Positions 16,519-60,334 of a DNA stretch of 64,000 nt are shown here, piece after piece. The notes beneath the pieces were generated by a model, which saw only the letters and a program-made list of their open reading frames with translations, did no database searches and was not told the DNA's origin. The DNA is from an uncultured Omnitrophica bacterium (GTDB lineage: Bacteria > Omnitrophota > Gorgyraeia > JACQQV01). The stretch lies in contig CAMTXH010000019.1 in the NCBI GenBank assembly GCA_947085655.1, forward strand, positions 3,827 to 67,826. Direction: 5' to 3'. Numbering within the stretch: position 1 is the first letter of the stretch; each line of letters starts with the position of its first letter. The position numbers and the translations under genes are program-made.

Positions 16519-16526
16519 CGTTTTCC

Positions 16527-17193: not shown

Positions 17194-17511
17194 GGGTAGA
17201 TGGAAAATTATAAAAATATCCCTTTCTCCCGTCAAGGAAAATCTCTCGAAAAAATTTCTTGAATCCCACTTTTTTGCCTGCTATAATGAGGCCGATTTTT
17301 GGAATTCTCGTCGAAATGACCCCGATAAAAATCGGAAAAGAGGATAGAATACCCCCCTGTGAATAACATGTGTGTAACGGGTAGCTCCGGGCAGGGAAGG
17401 GGGGTTTCAAAAACGGACCCTCCAAGCGTAGATATCGTCTAACTTCCAAAAACGACCCTTGTTAAGGAAAAGGGTTCCCTGTGGATGAACCTTTGAACAT
17501 GTGGATAACCT
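17194..17511. promoter_or_regulatory. candidate oriC / dnaA promoter region (rpmH-dnaA intergenic)
   Basis: Gene-strand polarity switches here. AT-rich stretch at about 17200-17345. DnaA-box-like 9-mers TGTGAATAA (17358), TGTGGATGA (17480), TGTGGATAA (17500), TGTGGATTT (17511) in direct orientation; the consensus is TTATCCACA or its complement. Confidence 0.6.
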
Positions 17512-20084: not shown

Positions 20085-26527
<6,443 letters not shown>

Positions 26528-40981: not shown

Positions 40982-41067
40982 CCCTTCGACCCTTCGACAA
41001 GCTCAGGGTGGCGATCCTGAGCAAGGCCGAAGGCCGCGTCGAAGGACGCCATTTTGAAGGAGCAGGA

Positions 41068-42680: not shown

Positions 42681-42783
42681 CAGGGACGTTTCTACACTTG
42701 GCCCCGACCTGTCCCTTTTGTTTAAAAACGAAGACAGGGGACACATTGGGGCCAGATTAGGGCCAGAACTAGAAACGTCCCTG
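42681..42783. repeat. palindromic intergenic repeat element, copy 2 (103 nt)
   Basis: CAGGGACGTTTCTAC ... CTAGAAACGTCCCTG terminal inverted repeat. Related to copy 1 at 27679-27816. Starts 5 nt after the hscB stop. Confidence 0.7.
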
Positions 42784-42816
42784 GTGTTAGGGGACGCAAT
42801 AGGTAGATTTTAACTC

Positions 42817-42845
42817 TTGACAGGGATAAGGGGGGATGGTATACT
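42817..42845 (+). promoter_or_regulatory. near-consensus sigma70 promoter TTGACA-17-TATACT upstream of the giant-protein cluster
   Basis: TTGACA at 42817-42822, 17-nt spacer, TATACT at 42840-42845. The track ORF start at 42836 lies inside this promoter, so the real start is downstream. Confidence 0.6.
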
Positions 42846-42925
42846 TTGTTCCATCTCGGAACATGAACATCCCTTTTTTTGTGCAACATAACTTAAGACT
42901 TTTAAAAGAGATAAGGAGGATTAAA

Positions 42926-45900
42926 ATGTCCCGCAAGTTTTTCCTGTTCTTGGCTCTTCCGCTAATTGTCTCGTTAAGTTTCCCCGCTGTTGTTTATTCC
43001 AAGCCAACCACTCATTTAAAGACCCCCTCTGCCAGAGATGGCGGGGTGCACCAGGAACTCGCCTGGATTTTGGGGGCGGACGTTTCTCCTGCCCAGGCCT
43101 CTCAGTTGGCGGCCGGAGCGAAGGAACTGGTCAGTACTGCTTTTGACGAAAACCGTGCCTTTGTCACAGTTGGGGCAAGCGATAAGGAAATCGCAAAGCA
43201 GGTGGATGCCTATGCCAGGGCGTATCATGCGCGGACCGGTCGGCGGTTCAGCGTGGCTGGGACAGAGGTCTTTACCAATTTCGGCAATAATGTGAAAGAG
43301 ATAAGCGGAGAAATCGGAAAACTTGCCAGGAGCTGGCGGGAGCGGGCCGGAAAAGGGTTTGGCCGGGACAAACGCAACGAGGATGGGACACCCGATTACC
43401 ATGAAGTCAATATTAAAGATGCCCTTGCAGAAAGACTTGCAAGGGCTTCTTCTTTTATTCAGGAAACATTGGCAAGCGGGGAAGGAACCGTCTATGCCAA
43501 TACAGCAAAGCGTCTTTCAGAAGAGACGCGCATTGTTTTAGTCTTGGATGAAGAGGGAATCCCAACGCTTCTTTCCGTCTATGCCAATACAGCAAAGCGT
43601 CTTTCAGAAGAGACGCGCATTGTTTTAGTCTTGGATGAAGAGGGAATCCCAACGCTTCTTTCCAATGGTGTTGAAGGAACACCCGAACATCAGGCGCTCG
43701 TCTCCTATGCAGGACGTCACCGCTATGCCGGATGGAAGGGCGGAGATACCACGACGCCGAACCGTGCTCGTTCGATTTACTTGAGTCTGGTTCAGGTTGA
43801 GGAACTGATGAAGCGGGCCGATAAGGAAACACTGGGGTCTCTCCTTTACCATCACGACAGGGACCTTCAGAACGGAAAGCATGAAGATCCGTCACCGGCT
43901 GCGGCTGAGCGGGTGAACAGCGTCCTTCAGGAGATTTTCACCGCCTATCGTGAAAAATATCTGGCGAAAGTCGAAGCAGAACACAAGACAAAACTCCAAA
44001 GGGTGACCACAACGGTGGTCAGTCTGGATGTTGCGACCTGGCTTGGGGGCGCCACCCGGATTCCGGATGAGGTGGTTGCGTTTGCGGAGAACGAGCTTAA
44101 GAACGAAATGGCTGCTGGGACCATCACCGCCTTTGTCGTGAAAGCAAGGGGAAAGGACCTGGATATTCAGGCAAACCACCAAAAAGGTTCGGAAAGTCCA
44201 ATCATTCAAAAAATCCTCACTGACCTCATGGTTCGGACCCTTGTTCAAGCGGTTTCTCCATCCTCAGAGACAAGGGAGGAAGTGCACCAAACCGCTAGAT
44301 CGTACGTTAGTTACCGACCTGCCGAGATGACCTATACGGAACGGGGGGCAGAACCGATTTTGATTGCGAAGGCGATTGACGCAGGACCCGGCTTCTTCAA
44401 CAAAGCCCTTTGGAATATTTTCTCGCATCCTGATCTCCAGTCAACGACCACGATTGACGCTTTTGCCGCTCCAGGATTCCGCTATGTCCTTTCAAGCGTT
44501 GAAGACCTGAAGGCAGGAAAGAAAAATCCGAGAACCCTTGTCTTCACCACACCCAAAGACCGGGATCTATTGCAGTCCTTTGCTTCAAACCCAGACGCTT
44601 GGGTCATTACCGAGGTCTATACCACTGTCGATACTTTGACCGGCGGGAAGATTCCGACGGACGAACCGATCGCAACCGTGTCGTATCAGGTGGTTGAAAA
44701 TGCCAAGGGAGAAAAGTCGCTCCTTAATCCCAACGCGATTATCCGGATGCAGTCCGGTTCGCCTGCGGTGGGAGAAGCGACCAACGCCATCTTCAGACCG
44801 CAGATTTCAATCGGCGGGCCGAACGGAGAATATAACGTTGCCGTTTTTCCGGTGAGTGACGAAGAGGCGCGCACTGCAGCGTATCAGCCGGGGATGGCGA
44901 GAGTTGCGGCTTACGGCTATCAATCCTCCGAGGAAAAACCAGGGTCTCCGATCTTCGGCAGAATTCCTGAGGACCCGGTTACGAATAAGCAGATTGTCTA
45001 TGACCAGGTTCCAAGAAGTTCTGCGGCAAGACTGGTGCGTGAAAAATCGGCGCTTCTTGCCAAACTCATGAATGACCACGGGGAGTTCGACCCTTACGTG
45101 GTGGCAAGCGTTGCCGAAGCGCGTGCCGAGAAGGCCAAGGAAGCGAACTTAAGCCGCTTTGAAAAATTGCCTGGATTGGCCAAGGAGGATGATGTCATGG
45201 CCGCCTCCCGGAATCCACTCGAAGGACACTTTACCGTCTCACTCATCAAAATCGATACGGGTGGGGATATTGGTCACCAGGGGGTGCCGACGGAATACCG
45301 TGTCGTGACCGAGGCCTCTCTTGCCGCAGCCCGTGAAGCATCAAAAGGCCAACTCTTTTCCGACGCCCACTTTGGCTGGGCCGGAGACGACAATCAGATT
45401 AACATGGTTCACCGGCATGGCGTTGATAACGACACAATTCACAGCTTTGATATTCAGGTCTTCTGGCGGCAGGTTTGGGCAGCCACAGCGGCCGGCCACA
45501 AATGGTACGGCCGCGGCCAGGATTTGGTGGGCGAAGCCATTAAAAAAGGAGATGTCGAAATCCGCGCAGGACTCAATGATGAATTCATCGAAGCGCTCGG
45601 GAAACAACTCTCCGGGGAAAAATCGAAATATTTCGCAAAGGTCAAAGCCGCCTACGAGACCTGGAAGCAGAAAACAGGAGGACAGGAGGTCGGGAAGCCG
45701 TATTCGGGGAATGTCCAGGCGATGGGTCCCGGTCTTTCTGAACTCGTTGTCAAAGCGGGGCAGCAGGTCGGGAAACTCGCGATGGACAAAACCGGCCCCG
45801 GCGCTTTCAACATTCCTTTTTGGTGGGCAGCGAACCAGGCGCTCGAAAGGGGCGTCTACGACGATCTCATCTTTGAGATTTGGGACACCGAAAAACACGA

Positions 45901-47236
45901 AAGAATTTTTGTCAGTCTCAAAGAAGAAAGACCTTTGGCCAGACAACTCCTCGGTGCTGTAAACCGCTTTAACATTAAGCGGATCTGGACTAGAAAGCCC
46001 GGCCATAAATGGGTCCGTTCCAAGCCGAAAGAGTCGATCAGTGATCTGCCGATCGCTTCTCTTTCCACCGAGCGGCTTTCCATCATCTCCGGCGGGGAAT
46101 ATCTTGGGAAGGACGATCCGGTTGCGCTCGCCCATATTGAGTTCATGGACATTGTCTTTGAATTCATGCGGGATCACTTCTACATGAACCAGGGAGATGA
46201 ACGGGGATCGCACTACATGATGCCGCTTGCCGAAGCGCATGAGGATGCGGTGGCGACGCTCCGGAGCCGTGCGGTCCAAACCGCCGAGCGGTATGTCATT
46301 ACGAGTGACGGGAAATATGCCGGCAGAGAGGATGTTTACAAAGAACCGGCCTATGAGACAGCGCGGAGACGTCAGGTGGAATACAACGAACTCATCTGGG
46401 CGGTTCAGGGTTCTGAATGGCCGCCGGTCGGCGTCGGACCTGCACAGATTGAGGCCTCCTATCCTGCTGCACGGCTCATGGAGGAACTTGAAGCGGAGGA
46501 TTCGGAGTACCGGATCGAGCGGACGCTCACCTTGGCGGAAAGTCATGCCGCTTCCAAGTGGGCCGATCTTTTCCCTGCGATCGGCCGTTCCGTGAGCCCG
46601 AAAGTGGCACGGATGGCGGCAGATGGAGGAAATAAAGTCATTTTGATTAACGCTGAGACCTTCATCGAAGGACCGGATGGGCTTTTGGCGATCCAGAAGT
46701 ATTTCAGGGATCTTGGATTCGAGACTCCGGAAGAGGCCTTGAAGAGCCCGGTGAAGATTTACATCAATGTTCCGAAAGACGTCAAACCGAGCGAAGGAAA
46801 CGAGATCGTTGACCGGCTTCTCCGGACGGCCAAGGAGAAAACAGACGGTGCCGTGACACTCACCCGGGATTGGTTTGCGGGTGTTGTCTCGGGTACATCT
46901 GCAGATGATGTGCAAGGGAAAATTTTGAATGTGGAGGCTGGCATCGATGTTGTAATCGGGCCTACCGAATGGGCACATGGCCTCCAAAGAATTACAGGGC
47001 CGACTCTCGTGACGGTTGCTTTGGACCCTTCGCCTGATCAGGAAGCCCGTTCCGGCGCAGCGGCGTTTCTGATGGCGATTGAGGCGCTTGCCAATAATAA
47101 GGTCATCGATGAAGCTCTTGCACAGAAACTCTCTGTTCAGATTGATCAGGGCGCCTTGAGCATCATCGCAAGCCCGGTAAGCCCAAAGATTGAAACGGAT
47201 CTCACGGCCTACCGCGAAGCGATGCGCAAGGTGTAA
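42926..47236 (+). CDS. giant secreted protein A (1436 aa) with embedded fructose-1,6-bisphosphate aldolase/phosphatase-like domain
   Basis: ATG 42926 preceded by AAGGAGGA SD. Signal-peptide-like MSRKFFLFLALPLIVSLSFPAVVYS. Residues encoded at about 45227-46500 carry FBPA/P-family motifs in order (IDTGGDIGHQG, WAGDDNQINMVHRHG, GRGQDL, SGNVQAMGPG, DKTGPGAFNIP, GEYLGKDDP, ERGSHYMMP). Confidence 0.8.
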   Translation: MSRKFFLFLALPLIVSLSFPAVVYSKPTTHLKTPSARDGGVHQELAWILGADVSPAQASQLAAGAKELVSTAFDENRAFVTVGASDKEIAKQVDAYARAYHARTGRRFSVAGTEVFTNFGNNVKEISGEIGKLARSWRERAGKGFGRDKRNEDGTPDYHEVNIKDALAERLARASSFIQETLASGEGTVYANTAKRLSEETRIVLVLDEEGIPTLLSVYANTAKRLSEETRIVLVLDEEGIPTLLSNGVEGTPEHQALVSYAGRHRYAGWKGGDTTTPNRARSIYLSLVQVEELMKRADKETLGSLLYHHDRDLQNGKHEDPSPAAAERVNSVLQEIFTAYREKYLAKVEAEHKTKLQRVTTTVVSLDVATWLGGATRIPDEVVAFAENELKNEMAAGTITAFVVKARGKDLDIQANHQKGSESPIIQKILTDLMVRTLVQAVSPSSETREEVHQTARSYVSYRPAEMTYTERGAEPILIAKAIDAGPGFFNKALWNIFSHPDLQSTTTIDAFAAPGFRYVLSSVEDLKAGKKNPRTLVFTTPKDRDLLQSFASNPDAWVITEVYTTVDTLTGGKIPTDEPIATVSYQVVENAKGEKSLLNPNAIIRMQSGSPAVGEATNAIFRPQISIGGPNGEYNVAVFPVSDEEARTAAYQPGMARVAAYGYQSSEEKPGSPIFGRIPEDPVTNKQIVYDQVPRSSAARLVREKSALLAKLMNDHGEFDPYVVASVAEARAEKAKEANLSRFEKLPGLAKEDDVMAASRNPLEGHFTVSLIKIDTGGDIGHQGVPTEYRVVTEASLAAAREASKGQLFSDAHFGWAGDDNQINMVHRHGVDNDTIHSFDIQVFWRQVWAATAAGHKWYGRGQDLVGEAIKKGDVEIRAGLNDEFIEALGKQLSGEKSKYFAKVKAAYETWKQKTGGQEVGKPYSGNVQAMGPGLSELVVKAGQQVGKLAMDKTGPGAFNIPFWWAANQALERGVYDDLIFEIWDTEKHERIFVSLKEERPLARQLLGAVNRFNIKRIWTRKPGHKWVRSKPKESISDLPIASLSTERLSIISGGEYLGKDDPVALAHIEFMDIVFEFMRDHFYMNQGDERGSHYMMPLAEAHEDAVATLRSRAVQTAERYVITSDGKYAGREDVYKEPAYETARRRQVEYNELIWAVQGSEWPPVGVGPAQIEASYPAARLMEELEAEDSEYRIERTLTLAESHAASKWADLFPAIGRSVSPKVARMAADGGNKVILINAETFIEGPDGLLAIQKYFRDLGFETPEEALKSPVKIYINVPKDVKPSEGNEIVDRLLRTAKEKTDGAVTLTRDWFAGVVSGTSADDVQGKILNVEAGIDVVIGPTEWAHGLQRITGPTLVTVALDPSPDQEARSGAAAFLMAIEALANNKVIDEALAQKLSVQIDQGALSIIASPVSPKIETDLTAYREAMRKV
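43490..43663 (+). repeat. perfect 87-bp tandem duplication inside giant gene A
   Basis: Two identical 87-nt units (43490-43576 and 43577-43663) encoding VYANTAKRLSEETRIVLVLDEEGIPTLLS twice. Confidence 0.85.
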
Positions 47237-48210
47237 TGATTACGCAATACAGCACGCAGTACACCTCCATGGTGATCAAGATGAGGGGACGGTTTCCCTG
47301 GCCTGCCGACCAGGGCAGGCTAAACCGTCCCCTCGTTTCTTTAGTGGTTTCCCTTCCTTTAATAGGGACTCTTGTCTTCCCCCCTTCTATCTATGCCGAT
47401 ATCCCCGCTCAATTACGGGCGCCGATGACCTCCAGAGATGAAGGCGTAGCCCAAGCCATTGCAAGAGACCTCTCACTCCTTTCAGGAAATCGGGCGGTAC
47501 AGGATGGCGGCAACCGGACGGAGCAGGAGGGTGACTTAGCGTCGGAGGCACTGGATGCCGAAACCCTTGGGAAGATGGTGATACGTGCCATTCCGGAGGT
47601 TGTCCCGCCGTTATCATCCGACATTCTTCAAACAACATTCCAGGGAACGATTGCCGTCTACGAAGAATCGCTCGACAACCTCACCATTGCCACCATGGTG
47701 GAGCGGTTTGCGCGTCAATTAAACAGTGCACGCTCTAAAATCGGATTCGTTCTGGTTTCCACATCAGGGAAATCCGAATCTGAGATTGCCGCGAAAGTCT
47801 ATCGGGATTCGAAGGGTTTGGTCAATCTGAGCGGTACTTTCCGGGCAACACTTGTGGAGGGCGAAGTCAACGCATTGAATCCTTTGTCGGTTGTGGCGGC
47901 ATTGGAAGAAAAAAGACTCCCGCCTCTTGTGGAACTCGTCGCACCTTTGGAAATCGTGGTCGCTTACCGAAGACCTGGCATCGAACTGTATGGATGGCTC
48001 GTATCCCGTAACCCGCAGGAAGGGGAGGCGGGCATTGCGAACGGCGCACCGGCCCTTCGGGAACTGGTCGAGCTTTTGGGGTTGGGGGAGAAGGAACGGG
48101 CGAGTCTCCTTCGGGATGGAGGCCGATCGTTCATGGTTAACATTCAGCGCTATGAAGAAGATTTCGAAGCGTTCGATTTCTCCTATCGTGAAGGCCGCAA
48201 AAGCGATTAG
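47236..48210 (+). CDS. signal-peptide protein B (324 aa) consisting of the module shared with the C-terminus of giant C
   Basis: TAATG overlap with the A stop. Hydrophobic segment LVSLVVSLPLIGTLVF. Residues from about 95 to the end align with the last 230 aa of ORF C (for example FDFSYREGRKSD versus LDRSYRENRGL). Confidence 0.75.
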   Translation: MITQYSTQYTSMVIKMRGRFPWPADQGRLNRPLVSLVVSLPLIGTLVFPPSIYADIPAQLRAPMTSRDEGVAQAIARDLSLLSGNRAVQDGGNRTEQEGDLASEALDAETLGKMVIRAIPEVVPPLSSDILQTTFQGTIAVYEESLDNLTIATMVERFARQLNSARSKIGFVLVSTSGKSESEIAAKVYRDSKGLVNLSGTFRATLVEGEVNALNPLSVVAALEEKRLPPLVELVAPLEIVVAYRRPGIELYGWLVSRNPQEGEAGIANGAPALRELVELLGLGEKERASLLRDGGRSFMVNIQRYEEDFEAFDFSYREGRKSD

Positions 48211-48688
48211 CAGACGAATAAGTTGAAGCAAAAGTTAGATTTTGTCCCTTGACAATCAAGGGATTAAATGATATCCTTAATGTAAAGAAATTGAAATTTT
48301 TGTGTATACATCTTGTTTATTTGTAAAAGGTTGTAACTTAACTGGAAATAGCATCTTTCAAAATTTGGTCTTTCTTTACTCAAGGTTTGTTCACTAGATA
48401 AACGCAAACCATTCGTGAGGATGGGACTGCAAAGCCTTGGACCCTGCACTAATTTTCGGGGAAAATTAGTGCTGGCAGCCGGGTTGCCTAAAGGAACAGC
48501 GGCCCGGTTTTTTTATTCCCTCGGCCTGAATGGCCTCGGGATCAATTTAGTCAGCAGACTTACGTTCGCTTTGCTCCGTAAGTCTGGACTTCATTGTTCG
48601 GCGTGGGGGCTCCGGCTTCCTTCTTCCCAAGGCAAGAGGCGGAGCAATTACAGGAGCCCTCACGAACCGATCCGGAGGTGAAGAAAAG
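48211..48688 (+). promoter_or_regulatory. long structured 5' leader/intergenic region upstream of giant gene C
   Basis: AT-rich at 48280-48400. Hairpin TCCCTTG-ACAAT-CAAGGGA (48245-48263) overlapping a TTGACA-17-TATCCT promoter-like pair. Perfect 10-bp stem CAGACTTACG/CGTAAGTCTG (48554-48585). Stem plus T7 run at about 48475-48512 (terminator-like). Confidence 0.45.
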
Positions 48689-54076: not shown

Positions 54077-57000
54077 TGTTGATGAAAAAGAAAAGATGGC
54101 TTAGTTTTTCTGCCTGGGTGACTTTCGAGCTCTTCTTTTTTACCCAGATTGTTTCGGCAGGGAACATTGTTGTGCCCTCTCCGCGCCATTCCCACCTCCG
54201 CGCCCCGAGTTTGAAAGGGACTGCCCAGGACGGGAGCCGTCGTGATGTCGGCGTTAGTCAATTTCTTACGGAGCTCCGGGGTGTCAAAGACGGCGGCACA
54301 CAAAATCTTGAGAGTTTTCCGTCTCTTTTACGAGATTATCTGAAGAGCGTAGCGGGCGTGATCGAGGGTCCCGACTGGTTAAGACAGACGCATGCCCTCT
54401 TTACCTCTGTCTATCCCCGGACTTTTCTTGCGGACTTGGAAAAGATGAGACAGGTGCCGGAACCCACCGGCGGCACCGTGTATTCGCGGCTTGATACACC
54501 CCTTTATTACGACGCAGAGCGCGGATTTGTCGTCCTGGTGGCATCCTGGGAGCCGGGTCAATCCACCCATATCCATAATCACCTCACCGAAAATGAAGAG
54601 CCGGAGGAAGGGATCATCGGTGTGCTTGAGGGCGAGGCAGAGGTGGTCCATTTTAGACGGGAGGGGAACCGGATTATTGAAGCGGGCCGGTTCATTTTGA
54701 AGGAAGGGCAGGCCGCGATTGTGCGTCAGGAAGCGGGGCAAATCCATCGGGTCAGGAATGCAGGAAACACCCGCCTTGTCATGCTCGATACCTACCGTCC
54801 CCGGCTTACCCGGACCGATGTCTTCCTGCCGCTTGAGGATCATTCGGAAACCTCCCTTTTGGGAGGGAAAAAGCGTGAAGCGTATGTCGTCGAGCCGGTC
54901 CGAATTCCTGCAGGGAAACAGAATCTTTTACTTCCGAAACTTTTGGTTGAGGCGGGCTTCGCTGTTCCGCAGATTGATGAGTTTCTGCGCAGCCCGATCA
55001 CCGTCAAAGCAACCTTGCAGGCCTTAAATGAAGCGAAGGCGCTGATTGCGGGGAGGGATGGAGGGGATAAACGGCAGCCGGCCAAGGAATCCACCGTCGA
55101 AATCGCAGGGGCGACATTTTTGCATCTTTCGGCCGAAAGACCGGTTGAGACGGTGCTGATTCCGGAGCCGATTGATCCGGCGGTCATCCGCCTGATTCAG
55201 GAAAGGGACGATGTCTCTGCCTTTATCCTGACTCCCGGGTCTGAAGAGGTTCGGACCCCCGAGGGATGGAAGGTTTTCTCGCAAGACCAGCTCTTAGAGA
55301 CCGTGCGCCAAACCAATCCTACCGCAATCATCGGCTATACCAATCTTCTCTATAATGCCCAATTGATGGATCTGGCCCCCCGCTTGGAAGGGATTTATCT
55401 TTTCTCGACGGGCCGTGAAAATGTGAGCCATCTGGAAGCGCGCCGGCGCGGAATCTTCGCCACGTTTGTCCCGGGGCCTTTAACGGAGATGGTGACCGAG
55501 CGGAATCACACATTTGGCCTGAATTTTGTCTTTGATTATTTAGGGAGCGTTCTCTATCAATCCCGTCCCGGTTGGATGACGGCCGAGGAGGTTTTGTCTT
55601 CTACGGTCAAAGAGAATCCGGAATCGGTTGCGCAGTGGATATGGGGGGAGCTTCTGCGAAGAAGTCAGCGGCTTGATCGGCAGGTTGACCATGTGAAACA
55701 AGGAAAATTCAGGCGCACAACCGGGGTCAGTGAAAACGCAACGGTTTATTCCGAACAATTGGCTCACAATCCGGAAATCGGAATAGAGACCACCCTCGGT
55801 CTTATCGGCCTTGGGGAAGTCGGCAAACGTCTTGCCGAGATTGCAAAGGTCTTCGAACTCAAAGAAGTCCGTTACCATGTGCCTCCTAAAGAACGGGATA
55901 AAAAATTAGAAAAAGAGCTTGGGTTGGTTTATGTAACATCTGTCAAGGACATTTTAACATCAAACTATGTGATCCGTGTCCCGGGCGCACCCATCCATTT
56001 AACCTCGGTAACCGATTTTAGGCAGGAGATTGTGGATCCTGAAAGAATATGGACCGATCCGGACAAGGCGCAGAATCTCCTGAAGCAGTCTCTTTTTGGA
56101 AGGAGAGCCCACATTGCAGGTCTGGGGCAGATCGGAAGAGAAACGGCCAGACGAGCCATTGCTCTCGGGATGGATGTGGATGCCATCGAGATTCGACCGG
56201 ATCTTGAGGCGATTGAAGCGCTGAATCAATTCCAGAGTAAGTTTGCCGAGCGCCACGGACGACCTAAAAGGCCAATCCGGTTGGTGAAGGATAAAGAAGC
56301 CTTCTTTAAAGAAGCAAACCCGGGAGACCTCTTCTTTTATCAGTTTAATTATACTCCTGAAGTCCATCATTGGGTCGATGCAGAGGCCCTGGCACTCCTC
56401 GGCGACACGCCGGTCATTCATATGAACACTGCCCGGGGGAAATTGGTGGATACAAAGGTAATGGAGGAATATCTCGATACCCATCCCCATTCAAAGTATG
56501 GAACAGACGTTTTGGAAAATGAGACCGGAGAAACAGAAAAAGGTCTCGCAGAGCGGCCTAATGTCGTGGTCACTCCTCATTCGGCAAGTGCCGATCCCCG
56601 GGTTCGCGCCTATGTTCAGAAAGTGGCGGTCGTTGATAACTTCTTCGCTTTCTTGGATGGGAAGATACCGGCCAACCCGATGCCCGAGGTCCCGGTTCAT
56701 GAAGTGGTGGCCCGGCGGATGTTTCGGGAGGCGGTCAAAAGCGCCGACGCGTATGAGGCGGTCAGGCGGCATGTTGCTTACGATCCTTCTTCCCAGACCC
56801 TCACCGTTCAGGGGCGCCCCTATGATCTCGCCGGTATTCAAAATATCTATGTTGTGGGATACGGCAAGGCCTCGGGGGAGATGGCCGAGGCGCTTACGGA
56901 AATTTTGGGCGAGCGGATTACATCCGGCGTTATCACTGTGGCCGGGCATGAGCAGAAGAAGCGGTTTAACGGGAAGATTAAACCGATTACTGTTTATGCC

Positions 57001-60000
57001 GGCGATCATCCGATCCCCGGGCTCGAAGGACCGAAGGGGACAGAGGAGATGATCGCCCTTGTGCATCAAGCGGAACCACAGGATATGGTCATCTCGCTCA
57101 TTTCCGGCGGCGGGAGCGCCATCGGTGCCCACCCCGTCTTTAAAATGTCCCTTAAGGACTTGCAGACACTCTATCAGCTTCTTGAAAGCACACCCATCCC
57201 GATTCATGAAAAGAACGTTATCCGTAAACATCTTGATGCACGCGCTGACCTCTTGCGGGTCTCAAGAAATGCAAAACATTTTGTCAGTCTCATCATTTCC
57301 GATGTCCCCGGGGATGATCCCCGCGACATCGCTTCCGGTTATACCGTCGGAGACACCAGCACATTTCGCGATGTGAAGGAACTTCTTCAGAAATACCACC
57401 TCTGGGGGAGAATTCCGGCATCCATCCGGAATTTCATCGAGCAAAATGTCATTAGTGATCCTGTGTTTGAACAGGTTCACCCCGAAGATCCCCTTTTCAA
57501 GGGCGGCCGAGTTCATACCGCACTTTTGGTCGGGAACCGTCCGGCCCTTGAACGGGCGGCGGAAGTGGCGCGCGCACTGGGATATGAGACAAAAATTATT
57601 GAAGAGCCACTTTCCCGCACGGTGGAGGCAGAGGGCGTACAGATCGTGGAGGAGATCATCGAGGCCTCCGATTCCCCGAGGGAAAAACCCCTTGCGATCC
57701 TCTGGGGCGGCGAGACGGTGGTTGATCTTCCCGAAAGCCCGGGGCGCGGCGGGAGGAATAGTCACCTGGCCATGACCATCGCAAAAGACCTTTTTGACCT
57801 GAATCTCCCGGAAGTGACCTTCCTTGCGGCAAGCACAGATGGCAAGGACGGCTCTTGGGACGGGACCGGGGCGGTGGTGACAGGCGAGACCGTGGCACGC
57901 GCGCAACAGGCGCGCATGGAGCTCTCCGACTTCTTAAGGCGCTTTGATTCCGGGACCTTTGCCGAAAAGACGGGGATTGATGTGACAACCGGACCCACCG
58001 GAACGAATGTGATGGATGTTGCCATCGCGTTAATTCCTGCCGGGATGCCAGAAGAGGCGCGCGAGGGCGGGAACCGAGAGGCGATTCGCAGCGCAGGAAG
58101 AGCGCTTGCGGGATTATTGCGTTCAAAACTCATCAATCTGCGGGATGCCGAGAAGATGCCGGCTGAACTCCGGCGTGCACTCAGTCAAGATGTCCACGAA
58201 AGACTCCGGCAACAATTGCATCCCACGCTTCTCAGGGAAGTCGGAGATGTCGAAAAGCCCGTCCTGGAAAGGACCCTTCGGGATGCCGCAGTTTTGGCTT
58301 CCTTGTCTCCCGAAGATCCCAAGGGCATCAAGCAGTCGGCTTTTCTGGCAGGGCGTATTTTAGAAGATATTAATCAATATGCCTCTTCCTCTGCGTCGTT
58401 ACGGGCCTCTTGGCATGCGCCGCGGGATCCATCCGGAAAGGTGATGGTGGATCCCCGATATGAGGAATACCGGAAGGCGATCTGGAAAAGCCCTTCCCAC
58501 TGGAATTTTAAGGGGATTCGGGGTCTCCTTGAGGCGCTTGAAGAGGAAACGCTGAGGGAAACGCTGCGACAATTCGCCGCAAGCGGTGAGACATTTGTTG
58601 TGGCAGAGATTGGGACGGGGAACGGCCCTTTGACGCAAGAACTCCTTGAGATGTTCAAGCGGTTCAGCGTCAAAAATTACAAAATTCTTGCGACCGATGT
58701 GAATGCGAGTTGGCTCGCTTCCGCTTATGAACGGTATGGAGACAAAAAAAGTCCCCATTATGATCCTTCCGTGGAATTTTATCTGGTCCGTTCCGAGGAT
58801 GAACAGGGGCGGTCCTTCAGGGATTTTGAGAAACTCTCCACAACGCTCGGCGGGCAGAAAGTCCATTTGGTGATCGGATCGCATGCGATCCATCTCATCG
58901 GGCAGTTTGACCAATTCGCAGCGGGAGTCCGCGAAACACTTCTCCCGGGCGGCTTTGCCGCTTTCCAGAGTTTGAACGTGGAATATCCTGGCCGGGTTTC
59001 GGCGGATGGAACGGGTCCTTTCCTCATCGATGATACCGCAAACCGTGTCCATGACCTTGCCGTTGAACTGATTCGAAACGACGCAAGATACGCCGGTTAC
59101 CGGGAACGGGTTTCAGAGGAAAACATCGCAAAAGCACTCCAGACTCGTCGGGCGGTTTTCCCACCGGTCCGGGACCAAAGCGAATATCTGACGCATCTTA
59201 AAGATCATGGCTTTGGTATTTTGGTCCCTTATGCCTCTCCTTCTTATCCGGCAGAGTATATCCATGTTCTCTATGAGGACTGGGGAGAATTTTTGAAACT
59301 TGAACTTTTGCAGAACGGTATCCTTCCCGAATTGCACAAAACCCCTGTTCAATCCGAGGTCATCGCCGAGGCGGCGGAACGGCTCTTTGAGTGGATGCGC
59401 CGGGAAAACGAAGAAAAGAGAAATCCTTTCACGAGCAAGGAGAAGAAGGGTTCCTTCATCGTCGGCTCCACCATCATCATTGCAAAATTGGGGAGGGAAG
59501 AAAGGTCGCCAGTCGAGCCGGAACGCTTTGCCCGGGATGGGGGGAGGAGAGGGCTCGAAATAGAGCGGCGCGAGGCGCTGGTTGCCTATCTTGATGGGAT
59601 TCTCGATGCAACTCCCACACAGGGCCCCGGCGTGATCTCATTGGATGTGAAGGTCGAACAATTAGCATCGCAGTTTGCGCTTCCCCCCGAAACCGTGAAG
59701 CGATTCCTTGGGGATTCGGATGTCTTCCAGATCTTACCAGATGGACAGATTACTTTTGATCGAAGCATCGGGGAGGATTCCGAAGCCCTTCGCTTTTTCG
59801 CAATGACGGCCAAAAAATGGATCGCCTCCGCCCGAGACGGCGGGTTCAAGGTTGGCGATGTCAAGACAGTAGAAGTGGAAGAAACGATTTCGGCATTACC
59901 GGAGGAGATTGCAAACGAGACGGATCAGCGTTATCAAGATGGGCGGCTGGTCGGAAGAGAAGGATTTGGCAATATTATTGATGCGATTGAGGACCGTGTA

Positions 60001-60255
60001 TGGACCATCGAAGAACTGCTTGAAAGACTCGACCGGAAGGCGGAGGAAAAACTCCGCCCAGAACTTTCTCCGCTTGCCAAAGCGCTATTGAGGCAGCTTT
60101 TGATTCAAGAGGGGACGGCTCGGGATAGCAGCGTCCTTCTTGAGTTGGCTAAAGCCATCCGAACGCTCGATCTTCCCTCTCTCACTGCGGGCCCCCTCCA
60201 CAAGGACCTCGAATCCGCAAAGCAGATTGTGAAAGAGGTCTTGGTCGGACTGTAA
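54076..60255 (+). CDS. giant secreted protein D (2059 aa): cupin + D-2-hydroxyacid dehydrogenase + MOFRL glycerate kinase + class I SAM-methyltransferase-like domains
   Basis: TAATG overlap with the C stop. Signal-like MLMKKKRWLSFSAWVTFELFFFTQIVSA. Cupin motifs (PGQSTHIHNH...GQIHRVRNAGN), Rossmann motifs GLIGLGEVGKRLA and IAGLGQIGRETARR plus VVTPHSAS, MOFRL motifs (VVGYGKASGEMA, ISLISGGGSA, LWGGETVVDLPESPGRGGRNSHLAM, AASTDGKDG), and MTase motif I VVAEIGTGNGPLT. Confidence 0.8.
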   Translation: MLMKKKRWLSFSAWVTFELFFFTQIVSAGNIVVPSPRHSHLRAPSLKGTAQDGSRRDVGVSQFLTELRGVKDGGTQNLESFPSLLRDYLKSVAGVIEGPDWLRQTHALFTSVYPRTFLADLEKMRQVPEPTGGTVYSRLDTPLYYDAERGFVVLVASWEPGQSTHIHNHLTENEEPEEGIIGVLEGEAEVVHFRREGNRIIEAGRFILKEGQAAIVRQEAGQIHRVRNAGNTRLVMLDTYRPRLTRTDVFLPLEDHSETSLLGGKKREAYVVEPVRIPAGKQNLLLPKLLVEAGFAVPQIDEFLRSPITVKATLQALNEAKALIAGRDGGDKRQPAKESTVEIAGATFLHLSAERPVETVLIPEPIDPAVIRLIQERDDVSAFILTPGSEEVRTPEGWKVFSQDQLLETVRQTNPTAIIGYTNLLYNAQLMDLAPRLEGIYLFSTGRENVSHLEARRRGIFATFVPGPLTEMVTERNHTFGLNFVFDYLGSVLYQSRPGWMTAEEVLSSTVKENPESVAQWIWGELLRRSQRLDRQVDHVKQGKFRRTTGVSENATVYSEQLAHNPEIGIETTLGLIGLGEVGKRLAEIAKVFELKEVRYHVPPKERDKKLEKELGLVYVTSVKDILTSNYVIRVPGAPIHLTSVTDFRQEIVDPERIWTDPDKAQNLLKQSLFGRRAHIAGLGQIGRETARRAIALGMDVDAIEIRPDLEAIEALNQFQSKFAERHGRPKRPIRLVKDKEAFFKEANPGDLFFYQFNYTPEVHHWVDAEALALLGDTPVIHMNTARGKLVDTKVMEEYLDTHPHSKYGTDVLENETGETEKGLAERPNVVVTPHSASADPRVRAYVQKVAVVDNFFAFLDGKIPANPMPEVPVHEVVARRMFREAVKSADAYEAVRRHVAYDPSSQTLTVQGRPYDLAGIQNIYVVGYGKASGEMAEALTEILGERITSGVITVAGHEQKKRFNGKIKPITVYAGDHPIPGLEGPKGTEEMIALVHQAEPQDMVISLISGGGSAIGAHPVFKMSLKDLQTLYQLLESTPIPIHEKNVIRKHLDARADLLRVSRNAKHFVSLIISDVPGDDPRDIASGYTVGDTSTFRDVKELLQKYHLWGRIPASIRNFIEQNVISDPVFEQVHPEDPLFKGGRVHTALLVGNRPALERAAEVARALGYETKIIEEPLSRTVEAEGVQIVEEIIEASDSPREKPLAILWGGETVVDLPESPGRGGRNSHLAMTIAKDLFDLNLPEVTFLAASTDGKDGSWDGTGAVVTGETVARAQQARMELSDFLRRFDSGTFAEKTGIDVTTGPTGTNVMDVAIALIPAGMPEEAREGGNREAIRSAGRALAGLLRSKLINLRDAEKMPAELRRALSQDVHERLRQQLHPTLLREVGDVEKPVLERTLRDAAVLASLSPEDPKGIKQSAFLAGRILEDINQYASSSASLRASWHAPRDPSGKVMVDPRYEEYRKAIWKSPSHWNFKGIRGLLEALEEETLRETLRQFAASGETFVVAEIGTGNGPLTQELLEMFKRFSVKNYKILATDVNASWLASAYERYGDKKSPHYDPSVEFYLVRSEDEQGRSFRDFEKLSTTLGGQKVHLVIGSHAIHLIGQFDQFAAGVRETLLPGGFAAFQSLNVEYPGRVSADGTGPFLIDDTANRVHDLAVELIRNDARYAGYRERVSEENIAKALQTRRAVFPPVRDQSEYLTHLKDHGFGILVPYASPSYPAEYIHVLYEDWGEFLKLELLQNGILPELHKTPVQSEVIAEAAERLFEWMRRENEEKRNPFTSKEKKGSFIVGSTIIIAKLGREERSPVEPERFARDGGRRGLEIERREALVAYLDGILDATPTQGPGVISLDVKVEQLASQFALPPETVKRFLGDSDVFQILPDGQITFDRSIGEDSEALRFFAMTAKKWIASARDGGFKVGDVKTVEVEETISALPEEIANETDQRYQDGRLVGREGFGNIIDAIEDRVWTIEELLERLDRKAEEKLRPELSPLAKALLRQLLIQEGTARDSSVLLELAKAIRTLDLPSLTAGPLHKDLESAKQIVKEVLVGL

Positions 60256-60284
60256 TCAGAACCAACATTCTGAATCCAATTTAA

Positions 60285-60312
60285 AAGCGCGCTTGAACGG
60301 TGCGCTTTTTTG
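60285..60312 (+). terminator. intrinsic terminator after the giant-protein cluster
   Basis: AAGCGC-GCTTGAACGGT-GCGCTT stem followed by TTTTTT. Confidence 0.65.
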
Positions 60313-60334
60313 TGTTAAAATAATTAATTAATTT

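What the first reader, a model, noticed from the sequence alone, without database searches (positions are those of the whole stretch)
42681..60312. Candidate undescribed system: a 17-kb operon-like cluster of four signal-peptide proteins, three of them giants built from cytoplasmic sugar-phosphate enzyme domains
Four co-directional genes (A 42926-47236, B 47236-48210, C 48689-54076, D 54076-60255) have stop/start overlaps (TAATG) or short spacers. A near-consensus sigma70 promoter sits at 42817-42845 and an intrinsic terminator at 60285-60312. Every product starts with a hydrophobic signal-like segment, which is unexpected for proteins whose recognisable parts look like cytoplasmic central-metabolism enzymes. 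Those parts are an FBP aldolase/phosphatase-like domain (A), a full-length GlmS-like unit (C), and cupin + 2-hydroxyacid dehydrogenase + MOFRL glycerate kinase + methyltransferase (D). All of these chemistries sit around F6P, FBP, triose-P and glycerate, and the cluster lies directly upstream of icd-mdh-sucC. Large regions between the recognisable domains (about 800 aa of A, 580 aa of C, 450 aa of D) match nothing I recognise. I do not know a described system with this architecture. Speculative options are an exported or surface-anchored multi-enzyme assembly, enzyme folds repurposed as carbohydrate-binding modules on a cell-surface protein, or cargo of a compartment.
Basis: partly seen in the sequence, partly recalled or inferred. 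Interest (0 to 1): 0.92.

Follow-up and report, generated by a model that had tools for sequence, protein, structure and literature searches.

The report
Exported multi-enzyme polyproteins with built-in protease
Four neighbouring genes encode signal-peptide proteins built from intact central-metabolism enzymes joined by short Asp-Gly-Gly linkers, one protein also carrying a protease of the type that cuts after Gly-Gly, which suggests a bacterial polyprotein system resembling the unexplained giant proteins of Omnitrophota.

Summary
The four ORFs, TAATG overlaps, enzyme domains, N-terminal hydrophobic segments, promoter, terminator and icd-mdh-sucC neighbours are all present. Four other assemblies match at 99.97-99.99 %, so it is not a chimera.

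- C starts with a C39-like cysteine peptidase (conserved Cys/His/Asp; best fold matches PCAT1 and ComA).
- An [A/S]-x-D-G-G motif follows each signal peptide and sits between modules: RDGG 6 times versus 0.12 expected. It is conserved in relatives at protein level only. A sister clade uses A-GLEE at the same positions.
- An invariant G|CCG junction precedes the N-terminal nucleophile Cys of C's amidotransferase, so C must be cut to be active.
- A c-di-GMP-I riboswitch, a terminator and a second promoter lie between B and C, giving two transcription units.
- A has two FBP aldolase/phosphatase domains, one degenerate. B equals the C-terminal module of C.

Syntenic relatives exist; the only named one is a Candidatus Omnitrophota MAG. 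A 2023 preprint reported signal peptide, C39 and glycolytic domains in giant Omnitrophota proteins, with cleavage points unknown.

Best reading (about 0.5): exported modular pro-proteins cut at DGG linkers by C's peptidase. Cleavage, localisation and purpose are untested. This is a new variant of a known, unexplained kind.

The parts
42801..42845 (+). Promoter of the A-B unit (TTGACA-17-TATACT, TG extended -10) with the upstream element AATAGGTAGATTTTA.
   Evidence: 11/12 match. The same upstream element plus -35 is seen before C-like genes in L005, L006 and L010.
42926..47236 (+). Gene A (1436 aa): signal peptide, HLKTP..SARDGG leader, about 320 aa unassigned, two FBP aldolase/phosphatase-like domains, AADGG linker, A-type C-terminal module.
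42926..43000 (+). A signal-peptide-like segment (MSRK + 19 hydrophobic residues + VYS|K).
43034..43045 (+). A leader RDGG motif (candidate cleavage site).
43488..43663 (+). Perfect 87-nt tandem duplication (29 aa x 2) inside A. It is absent from the second MAG of the same species.
44000..44902 (+). Degenerate FBP aldolase/phosphatase-like domain. The Schiff-base Lys and the DD motif are lost.
   Evidence: E 7.5e-13 to PDB 3t2b residues 2-295.
45230..46372 (+). FBP aldolase/phosphatase domain with catalytic motifs kept (IKIDTGG..GH, GDD, GQD, DKT, Y.GKDDP).
46622..46630 (+). DGG linker between the enzyme part of A and its C-terminal module.
46631..47233 (+). A-type C-terminal module (about 200 aa, ends ..TAYREAMRKV). 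It is 40 % identical to the C-terminus of an enoyl-CoA-hydratase fusion in Omnitrophota locus L005.
47236..48210 (+). Gene B (324 aa): signal-like segment, QLRAP leader, QDGG, B-type C-terminal module, and no enzyme cargo.
47503..47511 (+). B leader DGG motif.
47593..48207 (+). B-type C-terminal module. It is 52 % identical to the last 200 aa of C and 43-56 % identical to copies in L005-L010. No Pfam or PDB relative was found.
48249..48277 (+). Promoter of the C-D unit (TTGACA-17-TATCCT, TG).
48393..48491 (+). c-di-GMP-I riboswitch aptamer.
   Evidence: RF01051, 49.5 bits, gathering score 35. Homologous aptamer in L005.
48477..48514 (+). Terminator hairpin plus U-run. Its 5' arm is the 3' strand of the aptamer, so an ON switch is inferred.
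   Evidence: Conserved in L005, L006, L008, L009 and L010.
48597..48669 (+). Conserved 5'-UTR hairpin (GGGGGCU..GGCUUCCUUCUUCCCAAGGCAAGAGGCGGAGC..AGCCC) of unknown role.
   Evidence: five loci, three pairs with compensatory changes. No Rfam family matched.
48689..54076 (+). Gene C (1795 aa): signal, SHLRS..SSDGG leader, C39-like peptidase, G|CCG junction, long GlmS-like amidotransferase/isomerase, GRDGG linker, B-type module.
48833..48841 (+). C leader DGG, invariant in 5 of 5 homologues. It lies in a low-confidence (disordered) stretch of the model.
48956..49588 (+). C39-like papain-fold cysteine peptidase domain. Cys148 is at 49130-49132, His250 at 49436-49438 and Asp266 at 49484-49486.
49610..49618 (+). 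G308-C309-C310 junction. This is the conserved GCCG in homologues, and the Cys is the N-terminal nucleophile of the class-II amidotransferase, so cleavage is required here.
49616..53374 (+). Long GlmS-like unit: Ntn amidotransferase with a 330-aa helical insert, two SIS domains and the AKFVTVG tail.
53411..53422 (+). RDGG linker 14 aa after the GlmS-type C-terminal tail.
53471..54073 (+). B-type C-terminal module of C.
54076..60255 (+). Gene D (2059 aa): signal, SHLRAP leader, cupin, 2-hydroxyacid dehydrogenase, MOFRL glycerate 2-kinase, methyltransferase, two small C-terminal modules.
54289..54297 (+). D leader DGG. An upstream RRDVG is a decayed copy, and the orthologue has the reverse pattern.
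54547..54795 (+). Cupin domain.
   Evidence: The orthologue hits CDO_I.
55054..55065 (+). RDGG linker between the cupin and the dehydrogenase. It is conserved in the 41 %-identical orthologue despite a 36-aa indel in the linker.
55159..56676 (+). D-2-hydroxyacid (glyoxylate/hydroxypyruvate reductase-like) dehydrogenase.
56710..58017 (+). DUF4147 + MOFRL glycerate 2-kinase.
   Evidence: E 9e-63 to PDB 1x3l.
58063..58071 (+). EGG variant linker after the kinase.
58606..58956 (+). Methyltransferase domain (weak hit).
   Evidence: E 5e-5, below the gathering score.
59533..59544 (+). RDGG linker.
59833..59844 (+). RDGG linker.
60283..60314 (+). Intrinsic terminator after D.

Best explanation
The cluster belongs to a conserved, syntenic family whose only named relative is a Candidatus Omnitrophota MAG. 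Each product has three parts:
- a Sec-type signal peptide followed by a short conserved pro-region ([H/Q]L[R/K]xP ... [A/S]x-D-G-G);
- one or more catalytically intact metabolic enzyme modules separated by the same D-G-G linker;
- one of a few conserved C-terminal modules.

Protein C also carries, directly behind its leader, a C39-like papain-fold cysteine peptidase. That protease class cuts after Gly-Gly.

Proposed working, with the status of each step:
1. Two promoters drive A-B and C-D (shown as sequence signals).
2. C-D transcription is gated by a c-di-GMP-I riboswitch whose aptamer competes with a terminator, so c-di-GMP probably switches it on (aptamer shown; direction inferred).
3. The proteins are exported by Sec (inferred from sequence features).
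4. The C39-like domain cuts the DGG sites in the leaders and linkers of A-D and releases individual enzymes and modules (inferred).
5. The G|CCG junction behind the peptidase is cut, either autocatalytically as in PurF-type Ntn enzymes or by the peptidase. This exposes the N-terminal Cys that a class-II amidotransferase needs (the requirement follows from established enzymology; the cut itself is inferred).

The final location and purpose of the released enzymes are unknown: periplasm, cell surface or another cell.
For: Motif:
- RDGG occurs 6 times and DGG 10 times in 5618 aa of the cluster. In 13052 aa of other genes in the window the counts are 0 and 2. Shuffles give a mean of 0.12 and a maximum of 3.
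- Sites fall after each signal peptide and between Pfam/PDB-defined domains.
- The same holds in relatives: about 45 sites, consensus [AS][ARSTQ]DGG-x-[KR]. They flank TIM, enoyl-CoA hydratase, AMP-binding, cupin and dehydrogenase modules.
- The leader DGG is invariant in 5 of 5 C-homologues.
- The cupin/dehydrogenase DGG survives a 36-aa linker indel in a 41 %-identical orthologue.
- Codons and flanks differ at every site, so selection acts on the peptide and not on a DNA repeat.
- A sister clade of giant proteins uses A-GLEE instead: 16 observed versus 0.9 expected. It occupies the same positions, including directly after the GlmS tail (LAKSVTVE-A-GLEE versus LAKVVTN-RDGG). This is the pattern seen when proteases and their sites co-evolve.

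Peptidase:
- Pfam C39 scores E 0.003 in C, and 22.8 bits (above the gathering score) in homologue P0012.
- Cys, His and Asp are conserved.
- A family profile hits PCAT1 C39 domains as the top six PDB sequences, with His and Asp aligned.
- The AlphaFold model (core pLDDT 75-90) has PCAT1, ComA and a papain-like toxin as its best Foldseek hits.

Obligatory cleavage:
- GCCG is conserved in C, P0011, P0012 and P0015; more distant homologues P0061, P0112 and P0130 have GDCG there.
- 83 members of the long GlmS-like family place this Cys at residue 2 or behind a 45-70 aa propeptide.
- The other amidotransferase motifs are kept (RGRDS, RWAS, NAHP, LNGDI, SSDT).

Modularity: B equals the C-terminal module of C (52 %). 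Cargo differs between relatives at the same syntenic position.

Reality: independent assemblies agree and synteny is conserved.

Regulation: the riboswitch is above the gathering score. The aptamer and terminator are conserved in the Omnitrophota locus and the terminator in all loci.

Literature: signal peptide plus N-terminal C39 plus glycolytic domains were reported in Omnitrophota giants, with cleavage proposed but the sites unknown.
Against: - There is no experimental or proteomic evidence of cleavage.
- The C39 assignment rests on several weak signals: C is below the Pfam gathering score, Foldseek E-values are 2e-3 to 1e-1, and the model's mean pLDDT is 69.
- Classical double-glycine leaders have hydrophobic residues at -4, -7 and -12, which these sites lack.
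- Classical C39 domains act on the cytoplasmic face of ABC exporters, not after Sec export.
- Some orthologues have lost the DGG at an equivalent junction (P0015 has NRGYN).
- One DGG (in TIM) and one RDGG (inside B's module, not conserved) are incidental.
- The enzymes need ATP, NAD(P)H, CoA and sugar phosphates. They would have no obvious substrates outside a cytoplasm, so export itself is puzzling.
- Signal peptides were judged by eye and by hydropathy only.
- The taxon of the window is inferred from one relative at 29-47 % protein identity.
Confidence: 0.5

Rival explanations
1. The proteins are uncleaved multidomain exoproteins or surface proteins. They function as intact chains, for example as surface-displayed enzymes or adhesins switched on by c-di-GMP. 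DGG is only a family-typical flexible linker. The C39-like domain trims only its own leader, acts on other substrates, or is a non-proteolytic C39-like domain.
For: No cleavage data exist. C39-like domains without protease function are known (HlyB; cited). c-di-GMP riboswitches commonly control surface and adhesion genes (general knowledge). Some junctions lack DGG. Internal sites lack the hydrophobic pattern of classical leaders.
Against: The catalytic Cys, His and Asp are conserved across homologues of 24-32 % identity. The Ntn amidotransferase cannot work without a cut at G|CCG, and its other catalytic motifs are kept. A four-to-five-residue motif kept at protein level, while linkers vary in length and codons, is more specific than a generic linker. 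A sister clade has a different motif at the same places.
Confidence: 0.25
2. The proteins are a cytoplasmic, membrane-tethered metabolon. The N-terminal hydrophobic segment is an uncleaved anchor or targeting helix, and the enzymes stay on the cytoplasmic side where their substrates are. DGG cleavage would release them there, as C39 domains do on the cytoplasmic face of PCAT exporters.
For: All cargo enzymes use cytoplasmic substrates and cofactors and keep their active sites. Classical C39 domains work in the cytoplasm (general knowledge). The 2026 Omnitrophota preprint classes 46 % of the long proteins as membrane-anchored with cytoplasmic bulk.
Against: The n-regions are positively charged (MSRK, MKK, MKKKR) and the c-regions have AXA-like sites (ASA|L, VSA|G, IYA|D). 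This predicts N-in orientation and translocation of what follows. Each protein has only one hydrophobic segment, so nothing would bring the chain back into the cytoplasm.
Confidence: 0.12
3. The proteins are effector polyproteins for another cell. They are secreted and delivered into or onto a host or prey cell, as expected for host-dependent Omnitrophota. There the peptidase releases enzymes that re-route host sugar-phosphate and glycerate metabolism, analogous to MARTX toxins. This variant of the best explanation specifies the destination.
For: It resolves the substrate paradox. Omnitrophota are inferred to be predatory or parasitic and to use giant secreted proteins on target cells. The conserved leader and C-terminal modules with exchangeable cargo resemble effector and polymorphic-toxin logic. 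c-di-GMP control fits a switch between attached and free states.
Against: No secretion or injection apparatus lies in the window. No toxin-like domains are present. The taxon and lifestyle of this organism are not established. Nothing was tested directly.
Confidence: 0.1
4. The giant ORFs are an assembly chimera or pseudogene artefact.
For: The window comes from a metagenome assembly. One 87-nt perfect duplication differs between assemblies.
Against: Four other assemblies are 99.97-99.99 % identical across the cluster. Orthologues of similar length and order occur in unrelated metagenomes. The reading frames are intact and the active sites conserved.
Confidence: 0.01

Closest known systems
Giant Omnitrophota proteins ('Archaeovorins' and related), West-Roberts et al. 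2023, bioRxiv 10.1101/2023.11.21.568195; PF03412 architecture group in bioRxiv 10.64898/2026.06.07.730766
   Same: A signal peptide with a C39 peptidase domain near the N-terminus. Embedded triose-P isomerase, FBPase and aldolase-type domains predicted outside the cytoplasm. Post-translational cleavage was suspected. The only named relative of this cluster is an Omnitrophota MAG.
   Different: Here there are four proteins of 0.3-2 kaa instead of one of 30-150 kaa. Each has a single N-terminal hydrophobic segment rather than dozens of TM helices, and there are no SecA, dockerin or glycosyl-hydrolase parts. There is a defined recurring DGG motif (the preprint states that cleavage points are unknown), defined C-terminal modules, and a c-di-GMP riboswitch.
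Peptidase C39 / double-glycine leader processing by PCAT exporters (ComA, PCAT1, LanT)
   Same: Papain-like fold with a Cys-His-Asp triad. The candidate substrates end in Gly-Gly.
   Different: The domain is not fused to an ABC transporter. It sits behind a Sec signal. The substrates would be large enzymes cut at several internal sites, not small peptides cut once. The leader pattern differs ([AS]xDGG instead of LSxxELxxIxGG).
MARTX toxins with an internal cysteine protease domain, and viral polyproteins with papain-like proteases (LXGG sites)
   Same: One chain carries several functional modules plus its own cysteine protease. Short consensus sites lie between modules. A Gly-Gly P2-P1 preference is shared with coronavirus PLpro and deubiquitinases (general knowledge).
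   Different: No sequence relationship was shown. The cargo is central-metabolism enzymes, not toxins or replicases. The similarity is one of working principle only.
Propeptide-bearing Ntn amidotransferases (B. subtilis PurF, GltB) and GlmS
   Same: A class-II amidotransferase whose catalytic Cys must become residue 1. Two SIS domains and a GlmS-type C-terminal tail are present.
   Different: It scores far below the glmS equivalog cut-off (176 versus 418 bits). It belongs to an unnamed family of about 1200 aa with a 170-330 aa helical insert. Here the 'propeptide' is a signal peptide plus a whole peptidase domain.
Signal peptide + cargo + conserved C-terminal domain systems (cellulosome dockerins, T9SS C-terminal domains)
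   Same: Exchangeable catalytic cargo lies between an N-terminal Sec signal and a conserved C-terminal module shared by several proteins of one locus.
   Different: The C-terminal modules (about 200 aa, alpha/beta by a low-confidence model) have no detectable similarity to dockerins, T9SS domains or any Pfam or PDB entry. One protein (B) is the module alone.

Membership tests
Peptidase C39 (PF03412) | Profile match at or above the Pfam gathering score (22 bits). | tested here: inconclusive
   C scores 17.8 bits, E 0.003. Homologue P0012 scores 22.8 bits. A family profile places PCAT1 as the top six PDB hits, but at E 0.04-0.2.
Peptidase C39 (PF03412) | Papain-like fold. | tested here: met
   AlphaFold model, core pLDDT 75-90. 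The best Foldseek PDB hits are PCAT1, the ComA peptidase domain and a papain-like toxin, with probability 1.0 and E 2e-3 to 1e-1.
Peptidase C39 (PF03412) | Catalytic Cys, His and Asp. | tested here: met
   Cys148 in C.[ST]CG and His250 in G[DG]HF are invariant. Asp266 in LD[RK]G is conserved in all four sequences that reach that column. His and Asp align to PCAT1 HFVV/ADPG.
Peptidase C39 (PF03412) | Cleavage after a Gly-Gly motif. | not testable with these tools
   Only candidate sites were found. A peptide-cleavage assay is needed.
Peptidase C39 (PF03412) | N-terminal domain of an ABC exporter (PCAT context). | tested here: not met
   The domain follows a Sec-type signal and precedes an amidotransferase. 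There is no ABC transporter in the cluster.
Omnitrophota giant proteins (Archaeovorin type) | Signal peptide plus a C39 domain near the N-terminus. | tested here: met
   Met in C and its homologues. The feature is described.
Omnitrophota giant proteins (Archaeovorin type) | Embedded glycolytic/gluconeogenic enzyme domains. | tested here: met
   FBP aldolase/phosphatase in A. TIM and class-II aldolase (weak) in relatives.
Omnitrophota giant proteins (Archaeovorin type) | Length of at least 30,000 aa with many TM helices and SecA, glycosyl-transferase or dockerin parts. | tested here: not met
   The proteins are 324-2059 aa with one hydrophobic segment each and none of those domains.
Omnitrophota giant proteins (Archaeovorin type) | Organism belongs to the phylum Omnitrophota. 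| tested here: inconclusive
   The only named relative is a Candidatus Omnitrophota MAG (L005). It shares 29-47 % protein identity and a homologous 5' UTR. The window's own genome is not in the named collection.
GlmS (TIGR01135) | Score above the equivalog cut-off. | tested here: not met
   176 bits versus 418. Standalone relatives also fall below the cut-off.
GlmS (TIGR01135) | N-terminal catalytic Cys, two SIS domains and a C-terminal lid tail. | tested here: inconclusive
   The SIS domains, SQSGKTTDT, VASTKA and the AKFVTVG tail are present. The Cys is internal (residue 309/310) and would be N-terminal only after cleavage.
FBP aldolase/phosphatase (NF041126 / PF01950) | Profile match and catalytic residues (Asp/His metal ligands, Tyr-x-x-Lys-Asp-Asp). 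| tested here: inconclusive
   Pfam scores 249.7 bits (above its cut-off) but NCBIfam scores 238 versus 520. Catalytic motifs are intact in the second domain and lost in the first.
c-di-GMP-I riboswitch (RF01051) | Covariance-model score above the gathering score, in a 5' UTR. | tested here: met
   49.5 bits versus 35, located 197 nt upstream of C and on the same strand. Ligand binding was not tested.
MOFRL glycerate 2-kinase / D-2-hydroxyacid dehydrogenase | Domain profiles above their cut-offs. | tested here: met
   DUF4147 192.7 bits, MOFRL 98.9, 2-Hacid_dh_C 104. PDB 1x3l matches at E 9e-63. The equivalog-level cut-offs are not met.

The most novel reading that the evidence does not exclude
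This is a genuine bacterial polyprotein system. Central-metabolism enzymes are made as Sec-exported precursors and cut at lineage-specific linker motifs (DGG in this clade, A-GLEE in a sister clade) by a C39-like protease carried in the precursors. The protease-bearing transcript is gated by c-di-GMP. The released, catalytically active enzymes work outside the producer's cytoplasm, possibly in or on a host or prey cell. The same logic would explain how the 30-150 kaa giant proteins of Omnitrophota are used.
Probability: 0.3. Interest if true: 0.88.

Novelty: new variant of a known kind. Interest (0 to 1): 0.72.

Why it matters
Polyproteins processed by their own protease are a hallmark of viruses and of a few toxins. 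They are not known as a way for bacteria to deploy ordinary metabolic enzymes.

Whether, and where, the giant proteins of Omnitrophota are cut is an open question; the 2023 preprint says the cleavage points are unknown. This compact four-gene cluster offers three things that make the question testable:
- a concrete candidate site ([A/S]x-DGG);
- a candidate protease (C aa 90-300);
- an internal control, because the amidotransferase cannot work unless it is cut at G|CCG.

Synthetic peptides and one recombinant domain would be enough for a first test.

The cluster also sharpens a paradox: enzymes that depend on ATP, NAD and CoA, with intact active sites, sit behind Sec signals. If they really are exported, this bears on how ultra-small, host-dependent bacteria interact with other cells. 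If they are not exported, the signal-peptide-based topology calls made for Omnitrophota giant proteins need revisiting.

Tried and rejected
- Word-index protein searches with B, C aa 1-740 and a B-module profile returned only the query itself or nothing. They say little about absence, because the exhaustive HMMER search then found 132 relatives.
- The first genome scan, with two narrow B-module patterns, found nothing.
The model had pLDDT 52 and its Foldseek hits are noise. PDB profile and Pfam scans were empty.
- hhalign found no relationship between the A-type, B-type and 'VLKGL'-type C-terminal modules. There is only a marginal 43-aa match between the end of D and the latter. I therefore do not claim one common C-terminal domain.
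- The first roughly 320 aa of mature A have no PDB or Pfam match.
- DGG as a DNA-level recombination joint is rejected, because codons and flanks differ.
- The RDGG inside B's module (aa 293) is rejected as a site, because it is not conserved in homologues. The DGG inside TIM is the enzyme's own motif.
- The M48 peptidase and HscB-like genes upstream are syntenic in relatives, but so are the flanking tRNAs. I treat this as conserved gene order and not as functional linkage.
- A riboswitch upstream of A was looked for and not found.
- A literature search found no description of a DGG or GLEE processing motif.

Full report

A starts at 42926, not at the upstream ATG at 42836. The evidence is an AAGGAGG Shine-Dalgarno sequence and the 1436-aa protein held in the public collection. 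Both gene junctions are TAATG overlaps.

- FBPase_3 / FBP aldolase-phosphatase in A;
- SIS / GlmS-like in C;
- cupin, D-2-hydroxyacid dehydrogenase, DUF4147+MOFRL glycerate kinase and a weak methyltransferase in D.

Each protein has exactly one hydrophobic segment, and it is N-terminal. It has a basic n-region and an AXA-like c-region. The promoter at 42817-42845 and the terminator at 60283-60309 are found by the scans, and icd-mdh-sucC follow.

The cluster is not an assembly chimera. A second MAG (GCA_964374045.1) and three independent Logan assemblies are 99.97-99.99 % identical over 13.5-17 kb. The only difference is an 87-nt perfect tandem duplication in A (43488-43663), which the other MAG lacks.

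**2.

*(a) A recurring motif.* RDGG occurs six times, and DGG ten times, in the 5618 aa of A-D. In 13052 aa of the other genes in the window the counts are zero and two. Twenty thousand shuffles give a mean of 0.12 and a maximum of 3. The motifs lie 13-45 residues behind each predicted signal-peptide cleavage site, after a small conserved [H/Q]L[R/K]xP motif. They also lie between the recognisable modules:
- A: after the second FBP aldolase/phosphatase domain.
- C: 14 residues after the GlmS-type tail AKFVTVG.
- D: cupin | dehydrogenase-kinase | (EGG) methyltransferase | 100-aa module | 136-aa module.

*(b) A protease.* C aa 212-293 gives a weak Pfam C39 hit (E 0.003). An exhaustive HMMER search with C aa 1-700 found giant homologues (P0011, P0012, P0015; 2241-2550 aa) with the same N-terminus. 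In the alignment the Cys of C.[ST]CG and the His of G[DG]HF are invariant, and the Asp of LD[RK]G and the WTG/WSG motif are conserved in the sequences that cover them.
- P0012 passes the Pfam C39 gathering score.
- A profile of the family hits the PCAT1 C39 domain as the six best PDB sequences, with the catalytic His and Asp aligned.
- An AlphaFold model (core pLDDT 75-90) has PCAT1, the ComA peptidase domain and a papain-like toxin as its best Foldseek matches.

Each line is weak on its own, but they agree. C39 peptidases cut after Gly-Gly (established knowledge).

*(c) An obligatory cut.* Directly behind the peptidase domain, C, P0011, P0012 and P0015 have G-C-C-G followed by an amidotransferase strand; more distant homologues P0061, P0112 and P0130 have GDCG at the same place. 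C aa 310-1576 belongs to a large unnamed family of about 1200-aa GlmS-like proteins. Of the 132 hits, 83 show CG[LIF]AG, then a helical insert of about 170 aa, then RLEVRGRDSAG. In these proteins the Cys is either residue 2 or sits behind a 45-70 aa propeptide. Class-II (Ntn) amidotransferases use the alpha-amino group of Cys1 (established knowledge: GlmS, PurF). C keeps the other amidotransferase motifs, so it can only be active if it is cut at G308|C309/C310.

*(d) Regulation.* The 478-nt B-C spacer holds three elements:
- a second near-consensus promoter (48249-48277);
- a c-di-GMP-I riboswitch (48393-48491; 49.5 bits versus a gathering score of 35);
- a terminator hairpin plus U-run (48477-48514).

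The 5' arm of the terminator is the 3' strand of the aptamer. A-B and C-D are therefore separate units. C-D is probably switched on by c-di-GMP; the direction is inferred.

*(e) More anatomy.* A carries two FBP aldolase/phosphatase-like domains. The first (window 44000-44902) matches PDB 3t2b at E 7.5e-13 but has lost the Schiff-base Lys and the Asp-Asp motif. The second keeps all catalytic motifs. B is nothing but a leader plus a 200-aa module that is 52 % identical to the C-terminus of C.

**3. Relatives**

A pattern scan of species-representative genomes with the leader/peptidase alignment found one locus, L005, from a 'Candidatus Omnitrophota bacterium' MAG. Its ORFs show the same grammar:
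- signal, HLRAP..ARDGG, triose-phosphate isomerase, AVADGG, enoyl-CoA hydratase, SAQDGGG, B-type module;
- signal, ARDGG, enoyl-CoA hydratase, A-type module (40 % identical to the C-terminus of A);
- then a C-like giant ORF.

A metagenome scan with the B-module alignment found five more loci. The order tRNA-tRNA-M48 peptidase-HscB-[A-position protein]-[B-like]-[C-like]-[D-like] is conserved. The cargo at the A position and in the D-like protein varies: AMP-binding enzyme, HEAT repeats, a weak class-II aldolase.

About 45 DGG sites were collected, with consensus [AS][ARSTQ]DGG-x-[KR]. The orthologue of D is 41 % identical. It keeps the DGG between cupin and dehydrogenase even though that linker differs by a 36-aa indel, and each orthologue keeps one intact DGG in the leader. 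At DNA level the sites share neither codons nor flanks, so the constraint is on the peptide.

A more distant clade of giant proteins (P0014, P0018, P0059, P0061, P0074, P0112, P0125, P0130) has the same layout with a different recurring motif, A-GLEE. It is observed 16 times against 0.9 expected, and it occupies the same places:
- behind the signal peptide;
- directly after the GlmS tail (LAKSVTVE-A-GLEE, compared with LAKVVTN-RDGG in P0012).

A clade-specific short motif at equivalent junctions is what one expects of protease sites that co-evolve with their protease.

**4. The 5' UTR is part of the system**

Three RNA and promoter features are shared across loci:
- The 3' strand of the aptamer plus the terminator (GCCGGGTTGCCTAAAGGA...CCGGYTTTTT) is present upstream of the C-like gene, or at the contig end where that gene should follow, in all related loci.
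- The full aptamer is recognisable only in the window's species and, with large loop insertions, in the Omnitrophota locus L005 (27.5 bits; sequence).
- A further conserved hairpin (window 48597-48669) follows. It has three pairs with compensatory changes and no Rfam family.
- The promoters share an upstream element, AATAGGTAGATNTTA.

**5. How it most likely works**

Shown:
- the modular grammar;
- the conserved motif;
- the C39-like fold and triad;
- the internal position of the Ntn Cys;
- the riboswitch and the two promoters;
- the conservation and synteny.

Inferred:
- Sec export;
- cleavage at DGG by the peptidase of C, in cis and in trans on A, B and D;
- cleavage at G|CCG, either autocatalytic as in PurF-type enzymes or by the peptidase;
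- c-di-GMP as an ON signal.

A consequence worth testing follows from this. Only the C-D unit is riboswitch-gated, so maturation of A and B would also depend on c-di-GMP. The fate of the released enzymes is open. They need ATP, NAD(P)H and sugar phosphates (the dehydrogenase keeps GxGxxG and the Arg/Glu/His triad), which argues for a cytoplasm-like destination. Options are:
- the producer's periplasm with an unknown supply;
- another cell, on an effector model that would fit the host-dependent lifestyle inferred for Omnitrophota;
- against the topology signals, the producer's own cytoplasm.

**6. Comparison with what is known**

West-Roberts et al. [quoted passage not shown] They also noted that some contain triose-phosphate isomerase, glucose-phosphate isomerase, FBPase, phosphoglucomutase and aldolase domains predicted to be extracellular. 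They proposed cleavage by the C39/S8 domains but stated that the cleavage points are unknown. A 2026 preprint lists a 24-protein PF03412 architecture group among long Omnitrophota proteins without interpreting it.

The present cluster is a compact, multi-gene variant of that phenomenon, not a member of the 'Archaeovorin' class by size or domain set. It works like the following systems, without being a member of any of them:
- a viral or MARTX-type polyprotein;
- double-glycine leader processing;
- propeptide activation of Ntn amidotransferases.

I found no paper that describes the DGG or GLEE motif.

**7. Verdict**

- Novelty: a new variant of a known but unexplained kind.
- Interest: 0.72. 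The cluster supplies concrete, testable cleavage sites and a protease for an open question, and it sharpens the paradox of exported cytoplasmic enzymes.

Main uncertainties:
- there is no direct evidence of cleavage or export;
- the individual signals for the C39 assignment are weak;
- the functions of the C-terminal modules and of the first 320 aa of A are unknown;
- the taxon is inferred from one named relative.

Noticed in passing
window 48597-48669; L005 about 6925-7000; L006 about 1665-1740; L008 about 2015-2090; L010 about 8760-8830: A conserved hairpin lies in the 5' UTR of C-like genes, downstream of the riboswitch/terminator. Its core is GGCUUCCUUCUUCCCAAGGCRAGAGGCGGAGC inside a GGGGGCU/AGCCCC stem. 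Three pairs show compensatory changes. It matches no Rfam family.
   Followed up: partly
L006 1265-1759, L008 1871-2109, L009 6635-6782, L010 8481-8800: In these relatives only the 3' half of the c-di-GMP-I aptamer (GCCUUGG...GCCGGGUUGCC) and the terminator are recognisable. The first hairpin (GCAAACC...GGGAC) is missing or replaced. The leader may sense something else there or act as a plain attenuator. L005 keeps the whole aptamer but with large insertions in its loops.
   Followed up: partly
window 42801-42816; L005 about 6545-6560; L006 about 1295-1310; L010 about 8555-8570: A conserved element AATAGGTAGAT(T/A)TTA lies immediately upstream of the -35 box of the cluster promoters in four loci. 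It could be an UP element or a regulator site.
   Followed up: no
window 43488-43663: A perfect 87-nt in-frame tandem duplication (29 aa x 2) lies in gene A. It is absent from a 99.99 %-identical MAG of the same species. It is either a very recent polymorphism or an assembly effect.
   Followed up: partly
proteins P0013, P0016, P0020, P0022, P0032 and the GLEE clade: An [A/H/K]L[R/K]xP motif directly after the signal-peptide c-region (PAWA-LRP, SDALKP, SHLRAP) is shared by three otherwise divergent clades of giant proteins. This suggests a common N-terminal sorting or processing signal wider than the DGG family.
   Followed up: no
C-termini of C, D and homologues (window 54065-54073, 60244-60252): B-type modules end in ..YR[EA]N[RH]G[VLA] and the C-like giants and D end in ..[VL][KV]GL. 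A conserved Gly-hydrophobic C-terminus occurs on unrelated modules. It could be a recognition tag, but this is only a hint.
   Followed up: no
window 20405-24043: gyrB carries an intein (Intein_splicing, E 5e-20) inserted between the GyrB and Toprim domains.
   Followed up: no
window about 16000-17500: GC skew changes sign, and the cumulative skew minimum and the switch in gene orientation lie just upstream of dnaA-dnaN-gyrB-gyrA. This is probably the chromosomal replication origin, so the cluster lies about 25 kb from oriC on the leading strand.
   Followed up: no
window 41008-42676: An M48 (HtpX-like) peptidase with an EF-hand hit and an HscB-like J-protein lie directly upstream of A. They are syntenic in L009, L010 and L001, together with two tRNA genes. 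A functional link to the cluster was not shown.
   Followed up: partly
window 32797-34116: A 439-aa ORF between carA and carB in the pyrimidine gene row has no Pfam match.
   Followed up: no
proteins P0025, P0035, P0101, P0109, P0129, P0138 and about 75 fragments: A widespread, unnamed family of about 1200-aa GlmS-like proteins has a 45-70 aa propeptide (..FFP..L|CG[LIF]AG) and a helical insert of about 170 aa before RLEVRGRDSAG. It scores well below the glmS equivalog cut-off, and its function is unknown.
   Followed up: partly
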